A DNA stretch of 31,184 nucleotides from Candidatus Hodarchaeaceae archaeon. GTDB taxonomy: Archaea > Hadarchaeota > Hadarchaeia > Hadarchaeales > Hadarchaeaceae. The translations under genes were made by a program, and so were the position numbers. Each line of letters opens with the position of its first letter. The first letter of the stretch is position 1. Where the stretch lies: positions 1 through 31,184 of the forward strand of contig JASEGJ010000012.1 of the NCBI GenBank assembly GCA_030018135.1. The letters are read 5' to 3'. This document shows, piece after piece, positions 1 through 15,713 of this stretch. The notes below the pieces were generated by a model. It searched no databases and had not been told where the DNA came from. It saw only the letters and a list, made by a program, of their open reading frames with translations.

Positions 1-52
1 CCGCTTGCATGAATAGTCATCAACGGCAAAAACAAAGGAATTTTGCACACCC

Positions 53-510
53 CTAAATATTTTATTGAACTTTGCGCCGAATTTTTTTGCTGTAATCATT
101 GGCAGCTCGGCTGACCTCATTGAGGAGCATCTTCCTCAGGATCGAAACGAGCTGCTTGAGCTGGTTTTTATCCCTCACATTCAGCTCGACTCGCTTTTTA
201 TCAAAAATCCCACCTTCAATGATTTTGCATCAAGGATGTTAAAACAGTCGCCGAAGATGAGCAGGCCGCGATCGTGCCCCACCATATTTCTGACTTTCTC
301 GATCGCCTTCTGAATCTCTTCGTGCTTCCTAGAAACCCATCCCGTCTTCCTTTCGAGGAGGGAAGATTCGTCGCCCCAGCTCTTCGGGAGGACTACCAAC
401 AGTTTTCCAGTTTTGAACTCTAAGCGCGGGTATCTTACAGGCCTCCTTTCGACCACATATGGCATTTCCGAGCCGTTCACCCGGAGGAACTGCTCAATAA
501 ACTTGAGCAA
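53..510 (-). pseudogene. YgjP/DUF45-like M48 metallopeptidase, N-terminal part; frameshifted and truncated
   Basis: ORF 181..510 has the typical N-terminus (YVVERRPVRYPRLEFKTGKLLVVLP...KTGWV). After a frameshift at ~200-212 (GGG/TTTTT runs on minus strand) another frame continues DKKRVELNVRDKNQLKQLVSILRKMLLNEVSRAANDYSKKFGAKFNK. The expected WASCS/HExxH part is absent. Confidence 0.65.
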
Positions 511-563
511 GGGCGATGACCAGACAGTATGTGTTAAATAGGGGGATAGAAAGAAATTGTGCG

Positions 564-1374
564 TTATTTGGCGATTCTTTCTGTATGTTGCCTTAAAAAT
601 ATGTTTTCTAGTTTTTCAGGTATTTTTTTTCCAAATAGAGACCGGAAGACGCATTATTTCCCACATATCTCGGATTAATGGCTCTTGTCCAGGTGGATAT
701 ATCTGCGTTTTAAACTTCAAAATAAAGCCGTTACAGGGCTTCATTTGCTCAAATTGAACTGCTGGTGCGTTTCTTAAAATCCACAGGGGAATCAAACCGA
801 GAAATTCACACATCTTCAACTTGATCTTGAGTTCATCCTCTTCCATGTAGGGCAGTGTGTTTTTTACCTCCACACCATATGCGATTGAATCTTTTTCGAT
901 GATGAAATCCAAATCGTGCCCGGTTTCCTCCCACCTGAGCCCGCGGTATTCATTTGTATCCTCACCTACTATCCTGAACCCATTCAGCCGAAACATGAAA
1001 AAACAGCATTTGTGCAAATCTCCGATAGCCTTAGTTATTGTGGGATCGGTGTACCTACTAATTATCTTGGCTCTCCTATTGATCTCCCTACGAATGTATC
1101 TAATATCGGATCTGTACACAAAATGAGCGATATCTCTCTTTTCCAACCCCGGGAATCCCTCATCTACCAAACTATCAACGGCCCGATTGGTGACCCAATG
1201 AAAGTATTTGTCTTCAAAAATCACCTCAATTTGCTTCCTGTGGTGGGGGGAATTCGGGTTGCAGCTCGGGGTAGGAGTTCCGTATTGATAAGTCCAGTGG
1301 CGAGGATCTTTGAAAAATGACCTTATGTTCTCCTTTACTTCTGCATTTGTCAGCGCGCTCACGATCTTTCTCAC
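564..1374 (-). CDS. PD-(D/E)xK restriction-endonuclease-like nuclease (probable frameshift near C-terminus)
   Basis: Motif HDLDFIIEKDSIAYGVEVKN = (P)D...ExK. Visibly AT-rich. ORF stops at 616, but removing one base from the T8 run at 623-630 gives ...WKKIPEKLENIFLRQHTERIAK* ending at 564. Confidence 0.65.
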
Positions 1375-1403
1375 CCGATTGCTTGTGGTTTTTAACTTGC
1401 TGA

Positions 1404-1816
1404 TTACTGAATAAGCTTGTTAGAGATAATCCCATGGGCTTTCATGCTCGTGTAGCCGTCACTCCCGATTATCACGTGGTCCTGAATCCACACCCCTAGC
1501 ATCTTGCCAATTTTAACTAATTTTTTAGTGACCTCGATATCCGTCTCGCTGGGTTCCGGGCTCCCGCTTGGATGGTTGTGGACGAGGATGATGAAGGTGG
1601 CGGAGTTTTTGAATGCGCTCGCGAACACCTCTCGAGGGCGAAGCAAAGTTATGTCGACGCCCCGTCGGATATCGTCTCGCAGTTGATCAGCACGTTTTGG
1701 GAATCGAGGGAGATGAGCTTGACCACCTCGTGCGTAAGGGCCTGAACTTCCCGCCCGACCAACTCGAAAACATCTTTTGGACTCGTGATAAAAATTCTCC
1801 TGTTCTCTAATCCCAT
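1404..1816 (-). pseudogene. radC: RadC-like JAB/MPN domain protein (single frameshift ~1660)
   Basis: C-terminal frame has PREVF...IILVHNHPSGSPEPSETD...DHVIIG. N-terminal frame from ATG 1816 reads MGLENRRIFITSPKDVFELVGREVQALTHEVVKLISLDSQNVLINCETISDG. The two join if one base is added to the CCCC run near 1660. Confidence 0.8.
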
Positions 1817-1845
1817 TTTCCCGCCTAGGTTTTGGATGAGAGCGG

Positions 1846-1853
1846 TTTATAAA
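1846..1853 (-). promoter_or_regulatory. TATA box for radC-like gene
   Basis: TTTATAAA about 30 nt upstream of ATG 1816. Confidence 0.5.
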
Positions 1854-2216
1854 GACAAAACTCGCTTCAAGGGCTGATAGCTTTAAGGCGCGCTTCCCCA
1901 GTCCACCGACCGCCCCACCCTTCCAGTACCCGATCACCGCATCGCCGCCCACCAGCTCCGATCTCGCCCCCTGAACCTCCGAAGCCTGTGTGGGGCAGGT
2001 CCCGACCCCTCTGGAGGACATCTGCATCCTCAACGTCCTCATCCCCGCCTCTACAGATGTTTCCCCGTCGTGGGGCGTCATCGCCCACCTGCCCTGAAGG
2101 CCCCAAGGACAAACTGGCTCCTCCGGAAACGGGCACGATTAGAGCAGTGCAACATCACCGCCTGCTGGAGGGACACGGCGGGAAATGGTACTTAAGCTGG
2201 TGAACGGGTTGTGACC

Positions 2217-3059: not shown

Positions 3060-3440
3060 TTAAACCGCGCGTGAGATGAACATCAGCGGGTAGTCCAGCT
3101 CCCGCACATATCGCATGCCCACGCGCGCTCGAGCCTTGCCGTATTTTGCGAGGAGGTCAATCGTGAGCATCTCGCCAGACAGTTCCGGGTAGATGTAGGG
3201 GTGCCTGCGTCTACCCTTTGGGCACTTGATCTTCACCCTCGCCTCCTCGATGAACGGCTGCGCGAGCGCCGCCTGCTCCATCGCCCGCTCGAGCGCCTTG
3301 GCGTCGTGTATCGCCGCGCCCACGAACTGGTGGTAGAGGGCGCCGAGCGTTATCGCCCCCTCGAATATCGCCCGCTCGCGGTCCGTCACTCTCTTATCGA
3401 AGTACTTGCGCGCGGGGTCCTTCACCTCATCCCCTCCCAC
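3060..3440 (-). CDS. mptD: Archaeal dihydroneopterin aldolase (DUF372)
   Basis: TDRERAIFEGAITLGALYHQFVG and C-terminal ELDYPLM motifs; adjacent to mptE. Confidence 0.9.
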   Translation of the reverse strand: MGGDEVKDPARKYFDKRVTDRERAIFEGAITLGALYHQFVGAAIHDAKALERAMEQAALAQPFIEEARVKIKCPKGRRRHPYIYPELSGEMLTIDLLAKYGKARARVGMRYVRELDYPLMFISRAV

Positions 3441-3507
3441 GCCTTCTCGCCTTCAGGGCTAAATAACCGACGATGTCCAGCGGATATTGGAACTCGCGGG
3501 CCAACCT

Positions 3508-4233
3508 TCACCCAGCGACCTCCCGCGGCACGTTGGGGATGTCCTCCCCTCGGCTGGTGAGGTTGACGAGCCTCGCCTTAAGCTCGCCGGCGAGCCACGC
3601 CAGGAGCTCCTTGCATATGGCCAGCTTGACGAGCTTCCTCGCGATGTCCTTGTCGCCCGAATGCCTCCCCACCTGCCCGCCAAGGTCCATCCCGGCGAGG
3701 TAGATCTCGGACGCGCCCAGCTCGTGCGCCATGAACGCCGCGCGGTCGCCGTCCGTGAAGCCGCCGAAGTTGAGGAGCCCGCCGAATGGCTCGACCTGCG
3801 TCGTGCCAACGACGCGCTCCTTCAACCTTGGGGCGATGCTCAGGAGCTGATCGAGGTTATCGCCGTGGGCATGGACGACGAGCCAGGAACCCAGCCGCCA
3901 GGCGCGGAGCTGGTCCTCGATTTTGCCGTCCAGGTCCGTGACGATGATCTCGGGCCTGCGATGCTCGATCACCGCTGAGGTGGCGCCGTCCGCAGCTATG
4001 AGCACCTTCTCCAGGTATCCGGCCCGCCTTAGCCTAGTCAAATCCTCGTCCAGCGAGGGGCCGGCGCCGAACACCACGCACTCCCTCCCGCGCAGGGTGC
4101 CCGCCATTCCCTCGAGGTCCGGCTCTGGGAGGAGATCGTTCAGCGCCCTCGCGGCCTCCAGATCTGCGGCGGCATCCAGCCCCAGCCGCCCGACGATCTC
4201 CTCGTACTTAGGGCGCCAAACTTCCCAGCGCAT
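3508..4233 (-). CDS. mptE: 6-hydroxymethyl-7,8-dihydropterin pyrophosphokinase
   Basis: VFGAGPSL, IAADGAT, IVTDLDG, VHAHGDN, GTTQ and NFGGFTDGDRA motifs. Confidence 0.92.
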   Translation of the reverse strand: MRWEVWRPKYEEIVGRLGLDAAADLEAARALNDLLPEPDLEGMAGTLRGRECVVFGAGPSLDEDLTRLRRAGYLEKVLIAADGATSAVIEHRRPEIIVTDLDGKIEDQLRAWRLGSWLVVHAHGDNLDQLLSIAPRLKERVVGTTQVEPFGGLLNFGGFTDGDRAAFMAHELGASEIYLAGMDLGGQVGRHSGDKDIARKLVKLAICKELLAWLAGELKARLVNLTSRGEDIPNVPREVAG

Positions 4234-4242
4234 GCCATCGCC

Positions 4243-5337
4243 TCACAGATTTCCGTACTTCGTCTCGTAGGCCGCCAAGGCGTCCCTCCACTCCTCCTCC
4301 ATCTCGGTGTACACCCTGTAGGGGAGCTGCCCGAATCTCCCCTGGGACTCCACCGGCGCCCACCCCTCACCCGGCAGGTACACCTCGACCCATGCGTGGG
4401 AGACGATGTTCTCCCCCTCGGGCGTAGTGCCGACGACCATCTCGAAGCCCGGCGGGGGGCGAAATTCCCCGGTGAAGACTATCCTCCCGGCGACCCTCCT
4501 AGCGGGTATTCCCGCGGTCCTGGCGAGGGCGAGGTAGACGTTGGTGAAGTCCCCGCACTGCCCCTTCCCCAACTCCAGAACCTGCTCGGACGTGAGCCCG
4601 ACCAGAAAGACGTAGGTGATGTGGGTGCTCGTCCACTCGCAGAGCTTCCGCGCCAGCTCCCTGTCGTCCTTCGCGAGCCCGCGGACCTGCGACAGGACCT
4701 CGTTCACCCTCTCGCTGCCGGTGATCACCTGCGTCGAGGGGAGCAGAAAATACGCGTAGCTGGCCGGGATCTCGAAGTTATCCAGAGCTAAATTGCCGCT
4801 CGGCGCGGGCGCGAACTTGATCTCATCGGGCAACCTCCCGCCCTCGCGGTAGGAGAGGAGGATCCTGCTGAACGTAAACAGGATGTCCCTGAATCTGATC
4901 CTGCCGATCGAGGCTTCAACGCTGCCGGGCGCCCTCCCGGTCGCTTCCACCTCGTCGCGAATCCCTAGCGCCAGGCCGAGGTAATCGTCCTTTGAAAGAC
5001 TCCTCCAAGAGGCCGTGAAATCGCCGCTTTCTTCGCCCGCCCCGGCCACGGAAATCGGTCGCTCGATCGAGAACCGCTCGCCTCGAGCTGCGGCGACGAT
5101 CGCGTCCGCCGAGCAGTACAGCAGTTGGGGCGGGGTCAGGGAATACTCCAGACCTCCGACGGCGATCGAATATCGCTTGCCGAGCTCCCGTCCATATTTC
5201 AGGTCCCCGCGAACCTCGCCCATCGAACCCGCAAACTCCCGCAGGGCCTCATCGCTCGGGCGCCTCTGGAGCACGGCGATGGACAACATTGCCGCAGCTA
5301 CTATCGCAACGGCGGCGAGCAGGGCAACCTTGCGCAT
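4243..5337 (-). CDS. Exported/membrane-anchored transglutaminase-like cysteine protease with pseudomurein-binding-repeat (PMBR)-like segments
   Basis: N-terminal hydrophobic anchor. PMBR-like units SLSKDDYLGLALGIRDEVEATGRAPGSV and GRIRFRDILFTFSRILLSYREGGRLPDEI. Catalytic core GQCGDFTNVYLALARTAGIPARRV...SHAWVEVYLPGEGWAPVE. Confidence 0.8.
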   Translation of the reverse strand: MRKVALLAAVAIVAAAMLSIAVLQRRPSDEALREFAGSMGEVRGDLKYGRELGKRYSIAVGGLEYSLTPPQLLYCSADAIVAAARGERFSIERPISVAGAGEESGDFTASWRSLSKDDYLGLALGIRDEVEATGRAPGSVEASIGRIRFRDILFTFSRILLSYREGGRLPDEIKFAPAPSGNLALDNFEIPASYAYFLLPSTQVITGSERVNEVLSQVRGLAKDDRELARKLCEWTSTHITYVFLVGLTSEQVLELGKGQCGDFTNVYLALARTAGIPARRVAGRIVFTGEFRPPPGFEMVVGTTPEGENIVSHAWVEVYLPGEGWAPVESQGRFGQLPYRVYTEMEEEWRDALAAYETKYGNL

Positions 5338-5344
5338 GTTTCGC

Positions 5345-6181
5345 CTACCTTCTCCGGAGCAAGATCACGATCGCGGCCAGCACGACCAGCGCCGCCGCAA
5401 TTGCGCCGTACACGACATGGCTTGGGCCCTCCTCCGCGAGTGCTCCGGTGTATTCTATCGCGTGCGTCGGGAGCGTGTGAAGCAGTTCCTGCGGGGTTAT
5501 CGTGAGGTTATCCGTCGTGACGAAAATCTCGGTCCTCACCACGACCGCCGACCTCCCATCTATTCTTTCGATGCTGAGGGTGCTCTCCTCGCTGCTCCCC
5601 CCGCCGTACTCTATCCTCCAAGTGCCGACGCCCGCCAGCTCGGCCGCGTTGGTGATCTCGGCGCCCCTCGGCAGGATGGTCGCGAGATCCTGCGAAATTT
5701 TGAGCTGGGCCCCGGAGCCGAACGTAAGCAACATCGCCCGGAGGTTGTTCATCGTGTCGATCAGCCTCCGCGCATCCCCCTCTGGGTCGATGGGTTCGAA
5801 GGATATCGTCCATATGTTGTCGCTCCTCGCCAGGGCCGTTATCTCGCCGGTTATGGTCATCTGTAGCGTTTCCCCCTCGTCGAGGCCGGCGATTTCGCAT
5901 TTGAGATTTTTCACCTCCCAGCCGTATACGGCAAATGAGCTCCTCGCCTGCTCTATCGCCTGAGCTTTCACGAAGTCCTCCATGATCTTGTACATCGGCT
6001 TCAGGGCGTCCGCGAGAGGGGATGGGTGGTACTTCTGGACGAACCGGAGGGTGGCATTTCCCTTTTCATCGACGCGGATGTCGACGTCAGATGTTATCTC
6101 GAAGGGCTGTTGGGCCGCAAGCGGTTGCACCAAGGTCAAAAGCAAAAGCGCGGTCAGAGCTGCAGTCGCGAGATATCTCAC
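5345..6181 (-). CDS. Cell-surface protein with signal peptide and C-terminal TM anchor plus basic tail
   Basis: MRYLATAALTALLLLTLVQPLAA signal peptide; C-terminus VVYGAIAAALVVLAAIVILLRRR. Confidence 0.75.
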   Translation of the reverse strand: MRYLATAALTALLLLTLVQPLAAQQPFEITSDVDIRVDEKGNATLRFVQKYHPSPLADALKPMYKIMEDFVKAQAIEQARSSFAVYGWEVKNLKCEIAGLDEGETLQMTITGEITALARSDNIWTISFEPIDPEGDARRLIDTMNNLRAMLLTFGSGAQLKISQDLATILPRGAEITNAAELAGVGTWRIEYGGGSSEESTLSIERIDGRSAVVVRTEIFVTTDNLTITPQELLHTLPTHAIEYTGALAEEGPSHVVYGAIAAALVVLAAIVILLRRR

Positions 6182-6247
6182 GCATTCACCTCTGAGGACC
6201 CCTCGACCTTTTTTTGATAAATACCTTGACGAGCGAGCCGACCGCGG

Positions 6248-6764: not shown

Positions 6765-7766
6765 TCAGCGCCATCTAGCCCTCACCTCTTTGACCGCCTC
6801 CACCATCGCCCGAAGCTTTCCGATGGCTTCCTCTCGCGTCCTAGTTTTGAGCCCGCAGTCCGGGTCGATCCAAAGCTGCTCCGGGCTGAGGACCTCCAAG
6901 GCGCGGCCGATCCGCCTCTTCACCAGGCCGATGCCCTCGATGACGTGCGAGTGGACGTCGACCACCCCGAACGAGATGTCCTTGGTGAACGGGTGCCTCC
7001 GGAAGAGCTCCACCAGATCGAGCTCGCTGTTCGACATCTCCAGATCGAAGTTGTCCACGGGCAGCTCCAGCATCTGGGGATAGATGAACTCAAACGCGCC
7101 GTAGCACACGTGGGTGATGAAGTACGCGTCGATGCCCTTGGTGACGATGTCCAGTGCCTCGACCGCAAACTCCGGAAGCTCCTCCGGCCTGGTGGAAAGT
7201 GCCGGCTCGTCGATCTGGATTATCTTGGCCCCGGCCAGCGCGAGCGCCTCGACCTCCTCGTGCAGCGCGCGCGCGAGGTCCAAGCAGGCCTCCCTTCGGC
7301 TCGGGTAGTACTCGTTGAAGGACCAGTCCATCATGGTGTACGGCCCCGTGATCATCCCCTTGACCGGCTTCTTCGTCAGCCCCTGGGCGAACTTCCACCA
7401 CTCCACCGTGATCGGGCCGCGCCAGCGCACCTTGCCCACGATGATGGGCTTCCTGTAGTAGCGGTTGCCGTACGAGCGGACGAGCCCGCTTATCGCGAAG
7501 CCGTCGAGGTTCTCCGCGAAGTGCGTCGCCATATCGCCGCGGTACATCTCCCCGTCCACAAGCACGTCCAGCCCGACCTCCTCCTGCAGCGCGATCCAGT
7601 CGCGCGTGGCCCGCTGCTCGAGCGGACGCAGTTCTCCTAGGGTGAGCTTTCCCGCCAGCAGCTTCTGCCTCGCCTCGAGCAGCTCTGGGGGCTTCGGATA
7701 GCTGCCCACCGCAGTCGTCGGGAGCAGCGGCAACTCCAGTCCGAGCCTTCGAAGCTTTTCCCGCAT
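6765..7766 (-). CDS. metE: Cobalamin-independent methionine synthase, catalytic (C-terminal-like) subunit of split MetE
   Basis: LPTTAVGSYP, DGEMYRGDM, VRSYGNRYYRKP, IQIDEPA; Zn ligands THVC, LEM, PDCGLKT. Confidence 0.9.
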   Translation of the reverse strand: MREKLRRLGLELPLLPTTAVGSYPKPPELLEARQKLLAGKLTLGELRPLEQRATRDWIALQEEVGLDVLVDGEMYRGDMATHFAENLDGFAISGLVRSYGNRYYRKPIIVGKVRWRGPITVEWWKFAQGLTKKPVKGMITGPYTMMDWSFNEYYPSRREACLDLARALHEEVEALALAGAKIIQIDEPALSTRPEELPEFAVEALDIVTKGIDAYFITHVCYGAFEFIYPQMLELPVDNFDLEMSNSELDLVELFRRHPFTKDISFGVVDVHSHVIEGIGLVKRRIGRALEVLSPEQLWIDPDCGLKTRTREEAIGKLRAMVEAVKEVRARWR

Positions 7767-8747
7767 CTAGATGACCTCCCTCGCCCTTTGCGCGATCGAT
7801 ACCATGTTTTTGAGCTTCGCGAACGCGACGTCGCGCGGCAGGTATTCCAGCCCGCAGGACGGGTTCAAATAAGCGCGGTCGGCTTCGACGTGCGCGAGTA
7901 TGCGCCTCAGCAACGAGATCGTTTCTCCCTCGCCCTCGATCCTCGTGTTGCGCGCGTCGATCAACCCTAGCCCGAGCTCCTTCTCAGAGCCCGATGCCTC
8001 TATGGCGCCCACCAGCCTTTTGCCGTAGGTGAAGTCGAGCCCCAGCGCGTCCACCTGCAGCTCCTGAAGCTCGTCGTAGAGGGGGGCGGCATCGCCGAAG
8101 TATAAGTAAAGGGCAAGCCGGGCTCCGTGCTTTCGCCCCGCCAGTCTTTCAACCGCTGTGCGCAGAAGCTCGAAATCTCTAGGATTTTTTAATATCGCTG
8201 GCTCGTCGATTTGAATTATCTCAGCACCGACCTTCACCAGCTCCTCGACCTCATTTGCGATGACCTGCGCGAGGTCGGCAACTACCGAGGGAAAATCCTC
8301 GTAGTACCTATTGATGGAAAGCTTGGCGAGGGTATAGGGCCCGGTGAGCACCGGCTTGACGGGGACGGGGGAAACGCCCTTCGCGAAGACGAACTCATCC
8401 CTGACGATGGGCGCCGCCCAACGCAAACGCCTCACGATCACCGGCTGGCGGAAGTAGGTGTTGGTGTCGAAGAACCTGAGGAGGCCGTTTATCTCGCAAC
8501 CCTCAAGCCCCTTGGCGAAGTGGGAGACCTGGTCGTACCACCGCACCTGCCCGTCGGTCACGATGTCCAGCCCAGCCCTCGCCTGCTCTTGAATCACCTC
8601 CCCCGTGACCTCGTTTTGTACCTCTCCAAATTTTTCGTCCGAGATCTCGCCCTTCTCCCACTGCGCGTAGGCCCGCCGCAGCCTCTGCTGCTCGGGCAGG
8701 TCGCCGATGCGGGGGTAACTTCCGGCGTTCGTCGTCAAAAGCTCCAT
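7767..8747 (-). CDS. MetE N-terminal-like (non-catalytic) subunit of split methionine synthase
   Basis: GSYPRIG, RFFDTNTYFRQP, LTGPYTL, QIDEPAI, PSCGLEYLP; HxC replaced by YLY. Start placed at ATG 8747; abuts the catalytic subunit with no gap. Confidence 0.85.
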   Translation of the reverse strand: MELLTTNAGSYPRIGDLPEQQRLRRAYAQWEKGEISDEKFGEVQNEVTGEVIQEQARAGLDIVTDGQVRWYDQVSHFAKGLEGCEINGLLRFFDTNTYFRQPVIVRRLRWAAPIVRDEFVFAKGVSPVPVKPVLTGPYTLAKLSINRYYEDFPSVVADLAQVIANEVEELVKVGAEIIQIDEPAILKNPRDFELLRTAVERLAGRKHGARLALYLYFGDAAPLYDELQELQVDALGLDFTYGKRLVGAIEASGSEKELGLGLIDARNTRIEGEGETISLLRRILAHVEADRAYLNPSCGLEYLPRDVAFAKLKNMVSIAQRAREVI

Positions 8748-8811
8748 GCCATCCCGAAAAGAGGATATGGGGGGGCGCATAAAATAGTTGCTATCAGGTT
8801 GGGTCGAGAGG

Positions 8812-10173
8812 ATGCAACCTAGGATGGTACGGATCCCGGAGATGGGCGCGGTGGATCTCAGTGGAAGGCCGTATTTCATCGTGGCGTCAGTCGAGCTCGG
8901 CAACGTTGTCACGAAATGCACGTTCGTCGCGACCGACCTAGAAACCCGCCGGACTTATGTTCTGGGCGGGGGTGCGCGACCCACGCGGGAGATCAGGCCA
9001 CCGGGACCGGACGAGGGGATAATCGGGAGGACCGTCGCCGGAGTCGAGCTCGCCGAGACCTCGGTGGAGGAATTTGTGGCAGATGTCGTGCGACTCTCGC
9101 TTGAGTCGGCGAGGCTAAACCTCGACGACCTGCACTTCGTCGTCTGCTCCACAGATGCGGTCGCTGGGCTCGCCAGCCCATCCGAGGTCGATGCGATCGT
9201 CAAAACTATTGCGAACGGTTGCTCGGCAGCTGGCGTGCGACCCGAGCAAATGGTGCCGCCGCTTGAGCCCACTGACATGCCGACCGAGTTGAGATCGTTC
9301 TCCGCGCTCGGCCGGAGGCGATTTGATGGCATCGTCGCGGGCATGCGCACATTTGGTCGAACTCGTTTGAGCGCGAATCAGATGAAGGGCGAGCTGGCCC
9401 TGGCGGGGGTGAAGGAGGGCGCGCGATCGGTCGTCGTCGACCTTCGCAATCCTGTCATGGCAATACATTTCGGAACGTTGCTCGCCGGGTTGGTGACCGG
9501 CGATGAAGAGCTCGCGAGCCCGGTCGGGATAATCTGCGGTTTGGGCGGCGCCATACCTGACGCCATGGCGAGGGGCTCCGGCGGTGTTGACCGGAAGCTT
9601 GGAGCGGCGCTCGATCTCCCTCCCGCGAGGGGCGATGCGTACGCTGAAATGGCGGGGGAACTCGCGGCTAGGGCGATGAAAACGGTCGGGATAGGAAGGG
9701 TCTCAGTTGGCAGACCAAGCGTCGGAATGATACCCATCGACACTAGGGCTGCGTACGAAGCTGGCGCGGTGCCGATCGGCTGCGATGTTGGGCGGGATGG
9801 TAAAGACCTGCCGAAGCTCATCGAGCTCGGATGCGATGCGGCCAGCTATGGACTGCCCACCTTGCATGCGACGATCGATCGCACCTGCGCACAGGTGGTG
9901 GCGCGACTCATAAAAACGGCTGACGACGAGGGGCTGCTAACAGAGCGAACGGCGTTCGGCATAGCCGGGCGAGCGGGCATAACGGGCGATAAGCCGAGGC
10001 TCGTGCTTGAGCTGCTGGGCGACATGGGGTTTGACGACATCGCCAACCGCGTGGTCTTCGTCGGGGATGGCTTGGCCCTCGGCGGCGCGGTCAGGGCGCG
10101 TTGTTTATGTGCCCTTTGCCCAGCCTGCCCGCCCCTGTGCGGTGCGCGGGGCAAGGACTTCAGTGCTTTTTGA
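8812..10173 (+). CDS. Methanogenesis marker protein 14 (DUF2114)-like ASKHA-fold protein, divergent
   Basis: PYFIVASVELGNVVTKC, TREIRPP, DLHFVVCST, GELALAGVKEGA, DLRNP, IICGLGGAIPDA, IGCDVGRDG, GRAGITGDKP and VFVGDGLA match the recalled marker-14 motif order. Confidence 0.8.
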   Translation: MQPRMVRIPEMGAVDLSGRPYFIVASVELGNVVTKCTFVATDLETRRTYVLGGGARPTREIRPPGPDEGIIGRTVAGVELAETSVEEFVADVVRLSLESARLNLDDLHFVVCSTDAVAGLASPSEVDAIVKTIANGCSAAGVRPEQMVPPLEPTDMPTELRSFSALGRRRFDGIVAGMRTFGRTRLSANQMKGELALAGVKEGARSVVVDLRNPVMAIHFGTLLAGLVTGDEELASPVGIICGLGGAIPDAMARGSGGVDRKLGAALDLPPARGDAYAEMAGELAARAMKTVGIGRVSVGRPSVGMIPIDTRAAYEAGAVPIGCDVGRDGKDLPKLIELGCDAASYGLPTLHATIDRTCAQVVARLIKTADDEGLLTERTAFGIAGRAGITGDKPRLVLELLGDMGFDDIANRVVFVGDGLALGGAVRARCLCALCPACPPLCGARGKDFSAF

Positions 10174-11828: not shown

Positions 11829-11937
11829 CCTATCCACGTGAATACCTAAGTTGCAATTGGGCGATAAGTCTTTTAGAGCGCACAGAAGGGAAGACACTTA
11901 TTTAAAGTTCGTGCTTAACACAAATTTTGGGTCATCG

Positions 11938-12873
11938 ATGGGGAAGGGCAGCGGTTTTGGAAAGGTGATCTTGTTAAACGAGCACTTCGTCGTCTACGGC
12001 GTGCCGTCGATCGTTTCCGCGATCGAGCAAGCGACGGTCGCGCTGGTGGAGCCGTTCGATGGTCGAGGCTGGATCATAGAGGATCGAAGGCCAGCTACGC
12101 CGGGCTACAAGGAGGAGAAGCTGGATCAGCAGAGGGGGTCCATCGAAAGAGTTTTAAAAGCTGCTAAAATTGACCCCTCTCGAAATCCGATTAAAATCGT
12201 GCTCGAAGGGGACTTGGTCGCGTCGAGCGGAATTGGAGCCAGCGCCGCGTCCTGCGTTGCCATCGCTAGGGCGCTGTCGGACGAGTTCGGCTTGGACCTC
12301 TCGGATGAAAGGGTAAACGAGATAGCCTACGAGGGCGAAAGGGCATACCACGGAACTCCCTCCGGGATCGACAACACGGCGGCAACTTACGGAGGCCTCA
12401 TCTGGTTCGTGCGGGGTACCCTAAACGTGATAGAGAGGATCAGAATAAGGAAGCCAGTCGAAATCGTGATGGGGAACACCGGCATGGTCGCGGACACCGC
12501 GGCGGCGGTAGCGGGGGTTCGCGAGCGCAGGGAAAGATATCCGGAGAAATACGACAAGCTGTTTAAGGCCGCGGAGGGGCTGGCGCGTGACGCTAGGAGG
12601 GCCGTTGAGGATTTTGACCTGAGGGAGTTGGGAAGGCTGATGGACGAGAACCACAAGCTACTGCAGGGGATAGAGGTCTCCTGCAAGGAACTTGATTTTT
12701 TGGTCGAGCTGGCGCGGAAGCATGGCGCACTCGGTGCAAAGCTGACCGGGGGAGGCCTCGGGGGCAACATGGTCGCGCTCACGCCGGGCAAGGAGCTGCA
12801 GGAGCGAGTGGCAAAGGCTATAGAGAAGGAGGGCTTCGAGGTCCTCAGGACGAGAATCGGGGTGAAAACATGA
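11938..12873 (+). CDS. mvk: Mevalonate kinase
   Basis: GKVILLNEHFVVYG, SSGIGASAA, HGTPSGIDN and GAKLTGGGLGG GHMP motifs; operon context. Confidence 0.92.
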   Translation: MGKGSGFGKVILLNEHFVVYGVPSIVSAIEQATVALVEPFDGRGWIIEDRRPATPGYKEEKLDQQRGSIERVLKAAKIDPSRNPIKIVLEGDLVASSGIGASAASCVAIARALSDEFGLDLSDERVNEIAYEGERAYHGTPSGIDNTAATYGGLIWFVRGTLNVIERIRIRKPVEIVMGNTGMVADTAAAVAGVRERRERYPEKYDKLFKAAEGLARDARRAVEDFDLRELGRLMDENHKLLQGIEVSCKELDFLVELARKHGALGAKLTGGGLGGNMVALTPGKELQERVAKAIEKEGFEVLRTRIGVKT

Positions 12874-14144
12874 ACATGCGCGAGTTCGTCGAGTTCCTCG
12901 ACGAGAAGGGGCTTCTAATAAAAATAGGGAGGCAAGTAAGCGTCAGGTACGAGGCGGCGGCCCTGATGAAAATGCTGGACGGGAAGCCGATCCTCTTCAA
13001 AAATGTCAAGGGATTCGAGATGTCGGTGGCGGCGAACGTCTGCTCCTCGAGGGAGCTAATAGCGATGGGGCTGGGGATAAAGAAAAATGAGATCATAAGC
13101 AGGCTGACGAAGGCCATCGATCACCCGAAGGAGCCCAAAGTGGTGGAGGCAGAAGGTTACGAGGAAATCGACGCCGACCTCACGAAGCTCCCGATCCTGA
13201 CGTACTACCCCATCGACGGGGGACCATACATCTCCTCCGGCGTCGTCGTGGCGAGCGACAGGGACCTCGGTCTCAACGCTTCGTTCCACAGGATGATGGT
13301 CATAGGAAAAGACGAGGTGGCGATGAGGATACTTCCGAGACACTTTGACGAGTTCCTGAAGCGGGGAAACAAGGAGTTCGCGATATGCATCGGAAATTCA
13401 GTGCCGGTGCTCGTGGCCTCCGCTGTCTCGGCGGAGCTCGGGAAGAGCGAGTTGAGTATCGCAAACGCCTTGGCTGAGACGAATCTGATGGAGTTCGACG
13501 GGCACAAGGTTCCGGAGGCTGAGATAGTCATGATCGCGGAGATGACCGACGAGCTGCACGACGAGGGACCCTTCATAGACCTGACCGAGACGCCCGACAT
13601 CGTCCGAAAGCAGCGGGTGGCGAGGATAAAGAAAATATTCGTAAAAAAGGACCCGATCTTCCAGGCGCTGCTTCCGGGCGGCTTGGACCACAAGTTATTG
13701 ATGGGGATGCCCCGCGAACCCACTATCTTCAGGGAAGTCAGCAAGGTTTGCGAGTGCAAGGATGTCCTGATAACCCCCGGGGGATGTTCTTGGTTGCACG
13801 CTGTCGTCAGCATAAGGAAAAAGGGACCGGACGACGGCAGGAAGGCGATAGAGGCCGCCCTCAGGGGACACAAGTCGCTAAAACACATTTTCGTGGTCGA
13901 CGATGACATAGACATCCACAACCCCGGCGAGGTGGAGTGGGCGATGGCGACGAGATTTCAAGGCGACCGAGACATGATCATCAGAAGGGAGCCCGGCTCC
14001 TCGCTGGACCCGTCCTCAGACCTTGAAACGAGGGACACCGCAAAGGTGGGCTTCGACCTGACGATACCTTGGGGGAGGGACAAAAGAGAGTTCAGGAAGC
14101 CCGACCTGCCGATGAAGCTCGACCTCAAGGATTACCTGGAGTGA
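12870..14144 (+). CDS. UbiD-family decarboxylase, probable trans-anhydromevalonate 5-phosphate decarboxylase
   Basis: DGGPYIS, NASFHRM, DEGPFID, GGCSWLH, VVDDDID, WAMATRFQ, GSSLDPS; overlaps mvk (ATGA). Confidence 0.88.
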   Translation: MNMREFVEFLDEKGLLIKIGRQVSVRYEAAALMKMLDGKPILFKNVKGFEMSVAANVCSSRELIAMGLGIKKNEIISRLTKAIDHPKEPKVVEAEGYEEIDADLTKLPILTYYPIDGGPYISSGVVVASDRDLGLNASFHRMMVIGKDEVAMRILPRHFDEFLKRGNKEFAICIGNSVPVLVASAVSAELGKSELSIANALAETNLMEFDGHKVPEAEIVMIAEMTDELHDEGPFIDLTETPDIVRKQRVARIKKIFVKKDPIFQALLPGGLDHKLLMGMPREPTIFREVSKVCECKDVLITPGGCSWLHAVVSIRKKGPDDGRKAIEAALRGHKSLKHIFVVDDDIDIHNPGEVEWAMATRFQGDRDMIIRREPGSSLDPSSDLETRDTAKVGFDLTIPWGRDKREFRKPDLPMKLDLKDYLE

Positions 14145-14148
14145 TGGC

Positions 14149-15333
14149 TTGTACCTGACGAAAGAGCAGGAGCGGATGTTGAGCGGGGAGTACGGCGAGG
14201 TCCTGGAGCGGAACTTCAGGTTGCTCGTCAGGTTGGGCGAAATCTACGGCGCCGATAGGATGATCCCCGTGGGCTCGGTTCAGGTCGCTGGCGTCTCCTA
14301 CAAGTCCATCGGCGACCCGGGACTTGAGTTCCTTGAGGACCTGGCGGACAAGGGGGCTAGAGTTAGGGTGCCGACCACCCTGAACCCGCCCGGCATGGAC
14401 CTCGAGGACTGGAGGGAGCTCGGCTTTCCTAGGGACTTTGCCGAGAAACAGCTGAGGATAATCGACGCCTTCCGCAGGATGGGTGTGGCGATGACTGCGA
14501 CTTGCACCCCCTACCTCGTCGGCAACCTTCCGCGCTTCGGCGAGCACCTCGCTTGGTCCGAGTCGTCGGCGGTCTCCTTCGCGAACTCGGTGATCGGGGC
14601 GCGGACGAACCGCGAGGGCGGGCCCTCGGCGCTCGCGGCGGCGCTCTGCGGGGTGACTCCCAACTATGGACTGCACCTTGACGAGAACCGAAGGCCGAGC
14701 GTCGTGATAAAGGTCGATGCCGAGCTGAGGCGCGAGTCAGATTTCGGCGCCCTGGGCTACCACGTCGGAAAGACCATCGAGAAGGGGGTGCCCTACTTTT
14801 ATGGAATCAAGGACGCCGATGTCGACCAGCTGAAGGCCCTCGGCGCCGCGATGGCTGCGTCGGGGGCTATTGCCTTGTACCACGTCGAGGGCCTGACGCC
14901 GGAAGCTACTCTCGTGACAACCGGAGGGCTCGGGACGATCGAGGTCGGCGAGCGGGAGCTGAGGGAGGCCCACGAGGGGCTCAACACCGGGCGGGAGCCG
15001 GACATAGCCATCCTCGGCTGCCCCCACGCCTCGCTGGCGGAGATCGCGGAGCTGGCGGGCAAGCTCGAGGGGAGGCGCCTCCGCAAGCCCCTCTGGATCT
15101 GCACCGCGCGCGCGACCAAGCGGGCGGCGGCTGAGATGGGACTCGTCGATAAGATAGAAAGAGCTGGAGGCAAGGTGGTCGCCGACACCTGCGCGGTGGT
15201 CGCGCCCATCGAGCGCATGGGCTTTAAGTGCACGGCCGTGAACTCCGGCAAAGCGGCGAACTACCTGCCGGGCTTTTGTAAGCAGGCCGTCGTCTTCAAA
15301 AGCGTCGACGAGATATTGGAGATGGTGACATGA
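14149..15333 (+). CDS. Aconitase X-type phosphomevalonate dehydratase, large subunit
   Basis: GVSYKSIG, TCTPY, WSESSA, NSVIGARTNREGG, GCPH, DTC (Fe-S cysteines), NSGK. Confidence 0.88.
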   Translation: MYLTKEQERMLSGEYGEVLERNFRLLVRLGEIYGADRMIPVGSVQVAGVSYKSIGDPGLEFLEDLADKGARVRVPTTLNPPGMDLEDWRELGFPRDFAEKQLRIIDAFRRMGVAMTATCTPYLVGNLPRFGEHLAWSESSAVSFANSVIGARTNREGGPSALAAALCGVTPNYGLHLDENRRPSVVIKVDAELRRESDFGALGYHVGKTIEKGVPYFYGIKDADVDQLKALGAAMAASGAIALYHVEGLTPEATLVTTGGLGTIEVGERELREAHEGLNTGREPDIAILGCPHASLAEIAELAGKLEGRRLRKPLWICTARATKRAAAEMGLVDKIERAGGKVVADTCAVVAPIERMGFKCTAVNSGKAANYLPGFCKQAVVFKSVDEILEMVT

Positions 15334-15713
15334 AGGGCAGGGCGATCAGCCCGGGCAGGGCGAGCGGCGAGGCGCTGGTCTCGAGGGAACCCCTGAGCTT
15401 CTACGGCGGGGTAGACCCCAAGACAGGCATGGTCACGGAAAGGGGGCACGAGCTCGAGGGCAAATGCGTGAAGGATAAAATCCTGGTCTTCCCCCGCGGA
15501 AAGGGCTCGACCGTCGGCTCCTACGTGATCTACGGGCTGAAGAAAAACGGCGTCGCCCCCGCCGCGATCGTCAACAAGGAGACGGAGACCATCGTGGCGA
15601 CTGGAGTCATCTTAGCTGGAATCCCCTGCGTCGATGGAATTGATATAGACAAGATCAAAACAGGGGACAGGCTGACGGTGGATGGCGACAACGCAGTTGT
15701 CGAGCTTGGGTAA
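15330..15713 (+). CDS. Aconitase X swiveling domain (DUF126), phosphomevalonate dehydratase small subunit
   Basis: GEALVS, SFYGGVDP, KGSTVGSY, AGIP; overlaps large subunit (ATGA). Confidence 0.9.
   Translation: MKGRAISPGRASGEALVSREPLSFYGGVDPKTGMVTERGHELEGKCVKDKILVFPRGKGSTVGSYVIYGLKKNGVAPAAIVNKETETIVATGVILAGIPCVDGIDIDKIKTGDRLTVDGDNAVVELG

What the first reader, a model, noticed from the sequence alone, without database searches (positions are those of the whole stretch)
4243..5337. Pseudomurein-endoisopeptidase-like architecture (PMBR repeats + TGase-like protease) in an archaeon not evidently pseudomurein-walled
Seen: N-terminal membrane anchor, two clear PMBR-like units (aa ~113-175, nt ~4813-5001, each ending GR-x-P), a more degenerate upstream pair (...LTPPQLLYCSADAIV), then a Cys/His core whose third triad residue appears as Glu (PVE) rather than Asp. 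Known: PMBR (PF09373) plus Cys-protease domains define the lytic enzymes PeiW/PeiP and surface proteins of Methanobacteriales. Inference: either this lineage has an unrecognised pseudomurein-like wall polymer, or it displays an enzyme that binds or digests methanogen walls (adhesion, predation, necromass scavenging).
Basis: partly seen in the sequence, partly recalled or inferred. Interest (0 to 1): 0.75.

Follow-up and report, generated by a model that had tools for sequence, protein, structure and literature searches.

The report
PMBR–transglutaminase surface enzyme without pseudomurein
An uncultured archaeon with no detectable genes for the methanogen wall polymer pseudomurein still carries a surface enzyme built like the "pseudomurein-binding" transglutaminase proteins of wall-bearing methanogens, so this binding module probably recognises something other than pseudomurein here.

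Summary
ORF 4243-5337(-) encodes a 364-aa protein with an N-terminal membrane helix, a four-unit PMBR-type module (aa ~38-178) and a Transglut_core domain (Cys261/His314/Glu330).

Pfam alone scores PMBR below its cut-off (16.9 vs 24.9 bits). Two other tests support it:
- A profile of the module found canonical PMBR arrays (E down to 5e-77). All 47 non-family hits I scanned carry strong PF09373.
- The folded module matches only the PMBR domains of PeiR and PeiP at Z>=5, out of 48,161 PDB chains.

The gene is the C-terminal half of a ~600-aa family found in 37 of 66 genomes of its phylum. Earlier scan notes call the phylum Hadarchaeota; I did not verify the name. Here the family gene is split into two separately anchored ORFs (5345-6181 and 4243-5337).

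The genome (93% complete) has no Mur-ligase, MraY-family or McrA match. Only 1 of 66 phylum genomes has a Mur-ligase hit, and it is weak. An unrecognised pseudomurein-like wall is therefore disfavoured.

Most likely the enzyme acts on the cell's own glycosylated envelope. Targeting the walls of neighbouring methanogens remains possible and untested. I class it as a new variant of a known architecture, of moderate interest.

The parts
4243..5337 (-). ORF2: 364-aa membrane-anchored PMBR-transglutaminase protein (the finding)
   Evidence: ORF list. Transglut_core scores 4e-20. There are 50 homologues at 43-100% identity. The AF2 model has pLDDT 90.8 and pTM 0.85.
5269..5334 (-). N-terminal transmembrane anchor, aa 2-23 (MRK + hydrophobic helix)
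   Evidence: Sequence and helix 2-23 in the model. Other short forms (P0002, P0003, P0061, P0063) start the same way. An inside-to-outside topology is inferred.
5152..5226 (-). PMBR-type unit -1 (aa ~38-62, ...RGDLKYGRELG...), the most degenerate unit
   Evidence: Its KYGRE tail aligns with the RYGRLP end of a canonical PMBR in P0144. Some canonical hits match from profile position 6-7 onward.
5038..5151 (-). PMBR-type unit 0 (aa ~63-100, YSLTPPQLLYCSADAIV...)
   Evidence: It aligns in register with a PMBR of P0144. The commonest best stretch of canonical hits starts at profile positions 32-36, which is about aa 66-70.
4909..5007 (-). PMBR-type unit 1 (aa ~111-143, LSKDDYLGLALGIRDEVEATGRAPGSVE)
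   Evidence: The Pfam PMBR stretch is aa 113-140. Supported by hhalign and by the structural match to PeiR/PeiP PMBRs.
4804..4908 (-). PMBR-type unit 2 (aa ~144-178, IGRIRFRDILFTFSRILLSYREGGRLPDEIKF)
   Evidence: Supported by hhalign and the structural match. The Pfam PMBR model hits this unit in P0021.
4348..4689 (-). Transglutaminase-like core (aa 217-330) with Cys261 (nt 4555-4557), His314 (4396-4398) and Glu330 (4348-4350)
   Evidence: PF01841 scores 72.5 bits. Cys and His are invariant in 26 of 26 rows; the acid is Asp in 20 and Glu in 6. Fold matches are TglA Z 12.6, 3isr Z 12.5 and factor XIII/TG2 Z ~11. The alignment to TgpA puts Glu330 on the catalytic Asp.
5345..6181 (-). ORF1: 278-aa secreted N-terminal domain of the family, with its own signal peptide and C-terminal TM plus RRR anchor
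   Evidence: It matches profile positions 20-270 of the 603-position family model at E 1e-39. It has no Pfam family above cut-off. A GPS-CTERM-like tail scores E 7e-4, below cut-off.
5338..5344 (-). 7-nt spacer between the ORF1 stop (TAG) and the ORF2 ATG, preceded by a purine-rich GGAGAAGG
   Evidence: Sequence read directly. Translational coupling is inferred.
6209..6223 (-). TATTTATCAAAAAAA, a TATA-like box upstream of ORF1 (inferred promoter of the pair)
   Evidence: Sequence read directly. This is inference only and was not tested.

Best explanation
ORF2 is one half of a two-gene, split version of a ~600-aa cell-surface enzyme family conserved in this small-genome archaeal phylum. The product is held on the outer face of the membrane by one N-terminal helix.

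It carries a compact module of four PMBR-type helical units, directly followed by a transglutaminase-fold domain. That domain has an intact Cys-His-acid triad, with Glu in place of Asp.

In architecture it matches the N-terminally anchored 'PMBR beside C-terminal transglutaminase' surface proteins of pseudomurein methanogens. Those proteins are the proposed pseudomurein cross-linkers.

Shown: the domain identities, the homology to canonical PMBR arrays, family conservation, the split, and the lack of any detectable known pseudomurein pathway gene.

Inferred: because the lineage cannot make pseudomurein by the known route, the PMBR module most likely binds a different GlcNAc-containing glycan on the cell's own envelope. 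N-glycosylated S-layer or surface proteins are the likely target, since AglB is present. The module would then position the catalytic domain to cut or cross-link (isopeptide chemistry) envelope proteins.

PMBR would then be a general envelope-glycan module, not a marker of pseudomurein.
For: Identity and homology:
- True PMBR homology: the profile search gave 542 hits, and all 47 scanned non-family hits carry strong PF09373. Of these, 16 of 47 also have a C-terminal Transglut_core.
- hhalign gives 97.2% probability. PeiR and PeiP are the only structures with Z>=5 out of 48,161 chains.
- Feature-based Atlas neighbours are Transglut_core+PMBR clusters, commonest in Methanobacteriota (a lead only).

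Conservation:
- The family is present at E<=1e-30 in 37 of 66 phylum genomes of 0.6-2.2 Mb.
- Cys and His are invariant, which argues for a functional housekeeping-type enzyme.
- In a quick tree the family sits on one side of a branch (SH-aLRT 89). It is not nested inside the canonical PMBR-TGase group (95).

No pseudomurein pathway:
- The own genome has no Mur_ligase_M, Glycos_transf_4 or MCR_alpha match.
- Mur_ligase_M occurs in 1 of 66 phylum genomes. STT3/AglB is present.

Literature (passages read):
- PMB domains also bind fragments on lysozyme-treated bacterial spheroplasts, and the authors presume GlcNAc recognition (PMC3124540).
- PMB motifs occur in five bacterial genera (PMC3210951).
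- Exported transglutaminases are the proposed pseudomurein cross-linkers (PMC11915815 section 13; PMC10117817).
- TG-type adhesin-like proteins have an N-terminal TM helix, with PMBR beside a C-terminal TGase (PMC11532034).
Against: - No ligand or substrate was tested, and no Hadarchaeota envelope has been described in the papers I searched.
- Pfam PMBR is below its cut-off in this protein. At genome level it is over the cut-off in only 1 of 66 phylum genomes.
- The family profile does not hit PeiP or PeiW by sequence.
- Internal-repeat hhalign between the units is not significant; the best is P 0.025 for unit 1 against unit 2.
- The module is modelled as rigidly packed on the catalytic domain (pTM 0.85). 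It may therefore be structural and bind no ligand.
- The TGase-domain tree does not resolve whether the family and the canonical PMBR-TGases form a clade excluding other TGases. The outgroups split between them.
- The genome is 92.9% complete, so absences are not absolute.
- The phylum name rests on earlier unchecked notes.
Confidence: 0.5

Rival explanations
1. The enzyme is aimed at other cells. The PMBR module docks the archaeon onto pseudomurein-walled methanogens. The catalytic domain then cuts or remodels their wall peptides, for adhesion to a syntrophic partner, predation or necromass scavenging.
For: - The module is a true homologue of PMBR arrays, and three to four units align. The published minimum for pseudomurein binding is three motifs (PMC3124540, passages).
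- The fold arrangement, PMBR pair then TGase-fold domain, parallels PeiP. Foldseek aligns 8z4f_A at E 1.1e-6 over 345 columns.
- The producer has no pseudomurein pathway of its own.
Against: - The protein is tethered to the producer's membrane.
- It is conserved in 37 of 66 streamlined genomes and as a single fixed four-unit module. That looks like a housekeeping function, not an accessory one.
- The catalytic domain is not Peptidase_C71, and it is no closer in fold to PeiW than to generic TGases.
- The PMBR units are divergent from the canonical ones (Pfam sub-threshold).
- No co-occurrence or attachment data were examined.
Confidence: 0.15
2. The PMBR-type module is a structural or regulatory appendage of the catalytic domain (cap, spacer or pro-domain-like) with no glycan ligand. 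The protein would then be a generic surface cysteine protease or deamidase, and its PMBR ancestry would say nothing about its target.
For: - The module and core form one compact body in the model (pTM 0.85, pLDDT >90 throughout).
- Family-specific invariant charged motifs (RLDLKYGRE, IRFRD) differ from the canonical PMBR consensus.
- The number of units is fixed, unlike the variable arrays of canonical proteins, which show 2-8 matched stretches.
Against: Canonical relatives with the same PMBR-beside-TGase layout are surface proteins of walled methanogens (PMC11532034, passages). In PeiW and MTH719 the module is needed for wall binding (PMC2989375 and PMC3124540, passages). I had no access to model coordinates to test whether the module occludes the active site.
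Confidence: 0.2
3. The lineage has an unrecognised pseudomurein-like wall polymer, made by a route that does not use Mur-type ligases or MraY. This protein would be its cross-linker or hydrolase.
For: In pseudomurein methanogens, exported PMBR-bearing transglutaminases are the leading candidates for wall cross-linking (PMC11915815 section 13). The family here is conserved across much of the phylum. Published trees place Hadarchaeia near Methanomada and Thermococci (PMC9635834, figure legend passage).
Against: - Mur_ligase_M is absent from the own genome and from 65 of 66 phylum genomes. Every pseudomurein methanogen has at least four such ligases (PMC10117817, discussion passage).
- The own genome has no MraY-family match.
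- No other PMBR-bearing protein exists in the phylum. All four genome-level PMBR hits lie in this family. Walled methanogens have many.
Confidence: 0.07

Closest known systems
Host-encoded PMBR + Transglut_core surface proteins of Methanobacteriales (Group-III 'TG-type' adhesin-like proteins of M. smithii and M. stadtmanae; the exported transglutaminases proposed as pseudomurein cross-linkers, OG0000044)
   Same: Both have a single N-terminal TM anchor, PMBR units directly beside a C-terminal PF01841 domain, and an extracellular location (PMC11532034 and PMC11915815, passages). The module profile retrieves such proteins at E down to 5e-77, and 16 of 47 scanned hits have this layout.
   Different: - This family has a fixed four-unit, divergent PMBR module that is sub-threshold for Pfam in the window protein.
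- Its ~250-aa N-terminal domain has no Pfam family in place of archaeal Big domains.
- It is split into two anchored ORFs in this genome.
- It forms its own branch in the quick tree.
- It occurs in a phylum without Mur ligases.
Phage pseudomurein endoisopeptidases PeiP, PeiW and PeiR (PMBR x4 + Peptidase_C71; PDB 8z4f, 8jx4, 8z4h)
   Same: The order of parts is the same: PMBR units, then a transglutaminase-fold Cys-His-acid domain. The PMBR pair superposes at rmsd 2.0-2.2 A over 70-71 residues. The whole model aligns to 8z4f_A at Foldseek E 1.1e-6.
   Different: - The catalytic domain is PF01841, with no PF12386 hit at E<=1. PeiP itself scores 318 bits to PF12386 and 134 bits to PMBR.
- There is no sequence-level match to PeiP.
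- This protein is membrane-anchored and chromosomal, not a soluble phage lysin.
- tblastn against 50,697 phage records found only TGase-core matches in 20 bacterial-phage records, none covering 80% of the query.
Bacterial periplasmic or surface transglutaminase-like proteins (TgpA of P. aeruginosa, PDB 6g49; Cytophaga hutchinsonii putative cysteine protease, 3isr; S. pyogenes TglA, 9crn)
   Same: These are the best sequence and fold matches for the catalytic core. The family profile scores TgpA at E 1e-8 and 3isr at 3e-6. Fold scores are TglA Z 12.6 and 3isr Z 12.5. They are membrane-associated enzymes facing outward.
   Different: None of these structures matched the PMBR module. They have different N-terminal regions and are bacterial.

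Membership tests
PMBR, pseudomurein-binding repeat (Pfam PF09373) | Score at or above the Pfam gathering cut-off (24.9 bits) | tested here: not met
   The window protein scores 16.9 bits, E 0.0065. Relatives P0011 (26.5) and P0021 (26.2) pass, and 15 of 26 family rows match at E<=0.1. At genome level the model is over the cut-off in 1 of 66 phylum genomes.
PMBR, pseudomurein-binding repeat (Pfam PF09373) | Sequence homology to canonical PMBR arrays | tested here: met
   The A3 profile found 542 hits at E<=1e-3. All 47 scanned non-family hits carry PF09373 at E 1e-109 to 2e-12. hhalign of A3 against P0144 gives probability 97.2%, E 4.3e-11, over 125 columns.
PMBR, pseudomurein-binding repeat (Pfam PF09373) | Fold of solved PMBR domains | tested here: met
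   PeiR 8z4h_A scores Z 6.7 (rmsd 2.0 A, 70 aa) and PeiP 8z4f_A Z 6.6 (rmsd 2.2 A, 71 aa). They are the only chains at Z>=5 out of 48,161, and the next is 4.2. The Z values are modest because only ~70 residues align.
PMBR, pseudomurein-binding repeat (Pfam PF09373) | At least three motifs, the published minimum for binding pseudomurein | tested here: met
   Three units plus the tail of a fourth align in register with a canonical array. The typical best stretch is profile 33-144, which is three units. The threshold itself comes from PMC3124540 (passages).
PMBR, pseudomurein-binding repeat (Pfam PF09373) | Actual binding to pseudomurein | not testable with these tools
   This needs a binding assay with sacculi.
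Transglutaminase-like superfamily (Pfam PF01841) | Profile match plus the Cys-His-Asp triad | tested here: met
   The score is 72.5 bits against a cut-off of 23. Cys261 and His314 are invariant. The acid is Glu330 here, and Asp in 20 of 26 and Glu in 6 of 26 rows. It aligns to the TgpA Asp.
Pseudomurein endoisopeptidase Pei (Peptidase_C71, PF12386) | Match to the C71 catalytic domain | tested here: not met
   There was no PF12386 hit at E<=1. As a control, PeiP scores 318.5 bits. The fold score to the PeiW catalytic domain is Z 10.7, within the range of generic TGases.
TG-type adhesin-like proteins of Methanobacteriales | N-terminal TM anchor, PMBR beside a C-terminal transglutaminase domain | tested here: met
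   The family description is from PMC11532034 (passages).
TG-type adhesin-like proteins of Methanobacteriales | Archaeal Big (Ig-like) domains in the N-terminal part | tested here: inconclusive
   Neither ORF1 nor the ~600-aa homologues have a Big-domain Pfam hit.
Pseudomurein-walled organism (Methanobacteriales/Methanopyrales) | At least four Mur-domain peptide ligases | tested here: not met
   The own genome (92.9% complete) has 0 matches. Across the phylum, 1 of 66 genomes has a match. The control rang in 12-13 of 14 named genomes.
Pseudomurein-walled organism (Methanobacteriales/Methanopyrales) | MraY-family transferase, and methyl-CoM reductase | tested here: not met
   PF00953 gave 0 matches and PF02249 gave 0 matches in the own genome.

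The most novel reading that the evidence does not exclude
The PMBR-transglutaminase pairing could be older and broader than pseudomurein. On this reading it is an envelope glycan-binding, isopeptide-forming or -cutting machine already present in the common stock of Hadarchaeia and Methanomada. Methanobacteriales and Methanopyrales would later have recruited it to cross-link their new wall. Alternatively, these 1-Mb archaea use it to dock onto pseudomurein-walled methanogen partners. Either way the family would give a tractable, single-copy handle on the still unidentified pseudomurein cross-linking chemistry.
Probability: 0.15. Interest if true: 0.75.

Novelty: new variant of a known kind. Interest (0 to 1): 0.42.

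Why it matters
PMBR is used as a diagnostic of pseudomurein-associated proteins. Exported PMBR-bearing transglutaminases are the leading, untested candidates for the enzyme that cross-links pseudomurein.

This family is a conserved, mostly single-copy and divergent PMBR-transglutaminase in a phylum where almost no genome has a Mur-ligase match. That means either the module's ligand range is wider than its name suggests, or these archaea interact with walled methanogens.

It also offers a compact enzyme (364 aa in the split form) for testing what PMBR modules bind. The same enzyme can show whether such transglutaminase-fold domains cut or form isopeptide bonds.

I found no paper linking Hadarchaeota/Hadesarchaea with pseudomurein-binding repeats. 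Searches returned five listings (four distinct works), and the passages I read in two of them do not make the link.

Tried and rejected
- The search for related loci in genome contigs with A1 returned only generic TGase-core matches, mostly in bacteria.
- The phylum name 'Hadarchaeota' therefore rests on earlier AI notes. It is consistent only with a 66-species phylum of 0.6-2.2 Mb genomes.
- Sequence-level links to phage Pei failed. The A1 profile against PDB sequences gave no Pei hit at E<=10. hhalign of A1 and of A3 against PeiP gave probability <1%.
- The internal-repeat test by hhalign between the four units was not significant.
- Foldseek with the N-domain alone gave no match at E<=0.001. 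PeiP ranked first, at E 0.056.
- The careful tree did not finish. Only the quick IQ-TREE result (SH-aLRT, midpoint root) is reported, and it cannot give direction or timing of transfer.
- The apparent split in G006 turned out to be two contig ends, not a split gene.
- I considered and rejected a frameshift or assembly artefact for the split here. ORF1 ends in its own TM plus RRR, and ORF2 begins with its own MRK plus TM. Four other short forms (P0002, P0003, P0061, P0063; 360-362 aa) start the same way.
- The taxonomic origin of the 542 profile hits could not be determined, because that library holds no names. Only the Atlas lead points to Methanobacteriota.
Full report
**What is at the coordinates.** ORF 4243-5337 on the minus strand encodes 364 aa.
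- It begins MRK followed by a hydrophobic helix (aa 2-23).
- Pfam gives a solid Transglut_core match (aa 217-330, E 4e-20, 72.5 bits).
- Pfam gives only a sub-threshold PMBR match (aa 113-140, E 0.0065, 16.9 bits against a cut-off of 24.9) and no Peptidase_C71 hit at E<=1.

**The family and the split.**
- A search of 5.8 billion clustered proteins returned 53 hits. Fifty of them, including the window's own protein, share 43-100% identity over about 90% or more of the query. Most are ~600 aa; three are 362-364 aa.
- The extra ~250 N-terminal residues of the long forms are homologous to the neighbouring upstream ORF 5345-6181(-). That ORF matches positions 20-270 of the 603-position family profile at E 1e-39, and the finding ORF matches 271-603 at E 4e-164.
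- In this genome the family gene is therefore split. ORF1 has a signal peptide and ends in its own TM helix plus RRR and a TAG stop. Seven bases later ORF2 starts with MRK and its own TM helix.
- Four other short forms (P0002, P0003, P0061, P0063) begin the same way. The split is thus a maintained variant, not an assembly error. The topology keeps both halves outside the cell (inferred).
- An apparent split in genome G006 is only two contig ends.

**Is the PMBR call real?** Pfam alone is borderline:
- 15 of 26 family rows match at E<=0.1, best 6.1e-6.
- P0011 and P0021 just pass the cut-off.
- At genome level only 4 of 66 phylum genomes match at E<=0.01 and 1 of 66 is over the cut-off. All four hits lie inside this family.

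Two independent tests settle it.

*Profile search.* I built a profile of the module alone: A3, window aa 35-200 plus 12 homologues cut from loci L083-L094. I ran it against 1.84 billion representatives.
- It found 542 hits at E<=1e-3, 213 at <=1e-10 and 51 at <=1e-30. Many are 1,000-2,400-aa proteins with 2-8 matched stretches. The commonest best stretch covers profile positions ~33-144, which is window aa ~67-178.
- From the 150 listed, I set aside 14 rows that look like the family itself. These have one stretch covering most of the profile and are 271-627 aa long.
- I scanned the 32 highest-ranked remaining rows plus 15 shorter lower-ranked ones, which fitted the residue limit. All 47 carry PF09373 at E 1e-109 to 2e-12.
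- Of the 47, 16 also have a C-terminal Transglut_core, 9 have Beta_helix and/or NosD, and 5 have Peptidase_C39-type domains. Some of these domain types (right-handed beta-helix, transglutaminase-like, PMBR) are those listed for Methanobacteriales adhesin-like proteins (PMC11532034, passages).
- hhalign of A3 against one four-repeat hit (P0144) gives probability 97.2% and E 4.3e-11 over 125 columns. Three units and the tail of a fourth are in register.

*Structure.*
- An AF2 model of aa 30-200 has pLDDT 93.8.
- Aligned against 48,161 PDB representatives, only two chains reach Z>=5: PeiR 8z4h_A (Z 6.7, rmsd 2.0 A, 70 aa) and PeiP 8z4f_A (Z 6.6, rmsd 2.2 A, 71 aa, chain residues 82-156, just before its catalytic domain). 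The next best is Z 4.2.
- Foldseek ranks PeiP first but weakly, at E 0.056.

*Results against.* The family profile does not hit Pei proteins by sequence. Unit-against-unit hhalign is not significant.

**The catalytic domain.**
- The full model has pLDDT 90.8 and pTM 0.85.
- It matches transglutaminase-fold proteins: TglA Z 12.6, 3isr Z 12.5, factor XIII and TG2 at about Z 11, PeiW catalytic domain Z 10.7 and PeiP Z 10.3.
- Foldseek gives 3isr at 5e-7 and PeiP 8z4f_A at 1.1e-6 over 345 columns.
- Cys261 and His314 are invariant. The acid is Asp in 20 of 26 rows and Glu in 6 of 26, including this protein.
- It is a PF01841-type core, not the Pei C71 family.

**The organism.**
- The window lies in a 1.108-Mb, 45-contig genome that is 92.9% complete.
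- That genome has no Mur_ligase_M, no Glycos_transf_4 (MraY family) and no MCR_alpha match. It does have STT3/AglB.
- Its phylum holds 66 species-level genomes of 0.6-2.2 Mb. Mur_ligase_M occurs in 1 of 66, and weakly.
- The family is present at E<=1e-30 in 37 of 66 genomes: f1 34 of 46 including G000, f2 1 of 1, f3 2 of 9, f4-f6 0 of 10. A further 20 genomes have only a TGase-core paralogue.
- The own genome has one other TGase-like ORF, 548 aa on contig 45.
- Earlier notes of this scan call the genome Hadarchaeota.

**Interpretation.**
- All pseudomurein methanogens carry at least four Mur-type ligases (PMC10117817, discussion passage). A pseudomurein-like wall in this lineage is therefore unlikely.
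[quoted passage not shown] They also occur in five bacterial genera (PMC3210951, passage).
- Exported transglutaminases are the proposed pseudomurein cross-linkers (PMC11915815 section 13; PMC10117817).
- The best-supported reading is a surface enzyme that uses a PMBR-type module to hold a GlcNAc-bearing envelope glycan. It would then cut or cross-link the cell's own envelope proteins.
- The rivals are targeting of neighbouring methanogen walls, a purely structural module, and an unknown wall polymer. They are scored in their own sections.
- A quick tree puts the 25 family rows and the 16 canonical PMBR-TGase rows on opposite sides of supported branches (SH-aLRT 89 and 95). The outgroups split between them and the root is arbitrary, so no direction of transfer can be read.

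**Novelty.**
- The architecture is known. The new points are its conserved, divergent, fixed four-unit form in a phylum that lacks the pseudomurein pathway, the uncharacterised N-terminal domain, and the two-gene split.
- Searches for pseudomurein together with Hadarchaeota or Hadesarchaea returned five listings, four distinct works. The passages I read in two of them do not connect the two. I did not open the other two works (PMC5484517 and the preprint of PMC9635834).
- The scan holds no look-alike of this protein. An earlier unchecked note reports a PMBR-like plus TGase lipoprotein in a Bacteroidales PUL, which, if right, also argues that the pairing is not tied to pseudomurein.

Noticed in passing
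window 5345-6181 (-): ORF1 is the detached N-terminal domain of the ~600-aa family. It has no Pfam family above cut-off; the weak hits are GldM_1st at E 0.028 and, by profile, the BspA variable domain 5dz8 at E 0.0026. Feature-based Atlas neighbours are stand-alone ~260-280-aa membrane proteins commonest in Microcaldota, the DPANN group that holds the Micrarchaeia (score 0.92-0.94; a lead only).
   Followed up: partly
P0063 (360-aa short-form homologue): This short form has Ser where the family's invariant catalytic Cys sits (GGSAD in place of GQCGD). It may be an inactive or Ser-nucleophile variant.
   Followed up: no
window 8788-10173 (+): A methanogenesis marker 14 protein (TIGR03285, E 7.6e-127; DUF2114) sits in a genome with no McrA match.
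   Followed up: partly
window 6765-7766 and 7767-8921 (-): Two adjacent cobalamin-independent methionine-synthase-like genes lie end to end (Meth_synt_2 at 1.8e-85; Meth_synt_2 plus Meth_synt_1 at 5e-43 and 7e-33).
   Followed up: no
window 11851-15713 (+): This is a compact archaeal mevalonate-pathway cluster. It holds mevalonate kinase, a UbiD-family decarboxylase, and the AcnX large and swivel subunits.
   Followed up: no
window 1-2000: G+C drops to 44-50%, against ~60% for most of the window. The stretch holds a RadC-like JAB protein (1404-2081) and a 252-aa ORF with no family (616-1374). It may be foreign or mobile DNA.
   Followed up: no
window 3060-4233 (-): Directly downstream of the finding, with a 9-nt gap, lie an MptE-like 6-hydroxymethylpterin diphosphokinase and an archaeal dihydroneopterin aldolase. 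These pterin-biosynthesis genes are probably co-transcribed but functionally unrelated.
   Followed up: no
G000 contig 45, about 32824-33096 (-), 548-aa open frame: This is the only other transglutaminase-core ORF in the genome. It matches only profile positions 468-569/570 of the family model, outside the PMBR region.
   Followed up: partly
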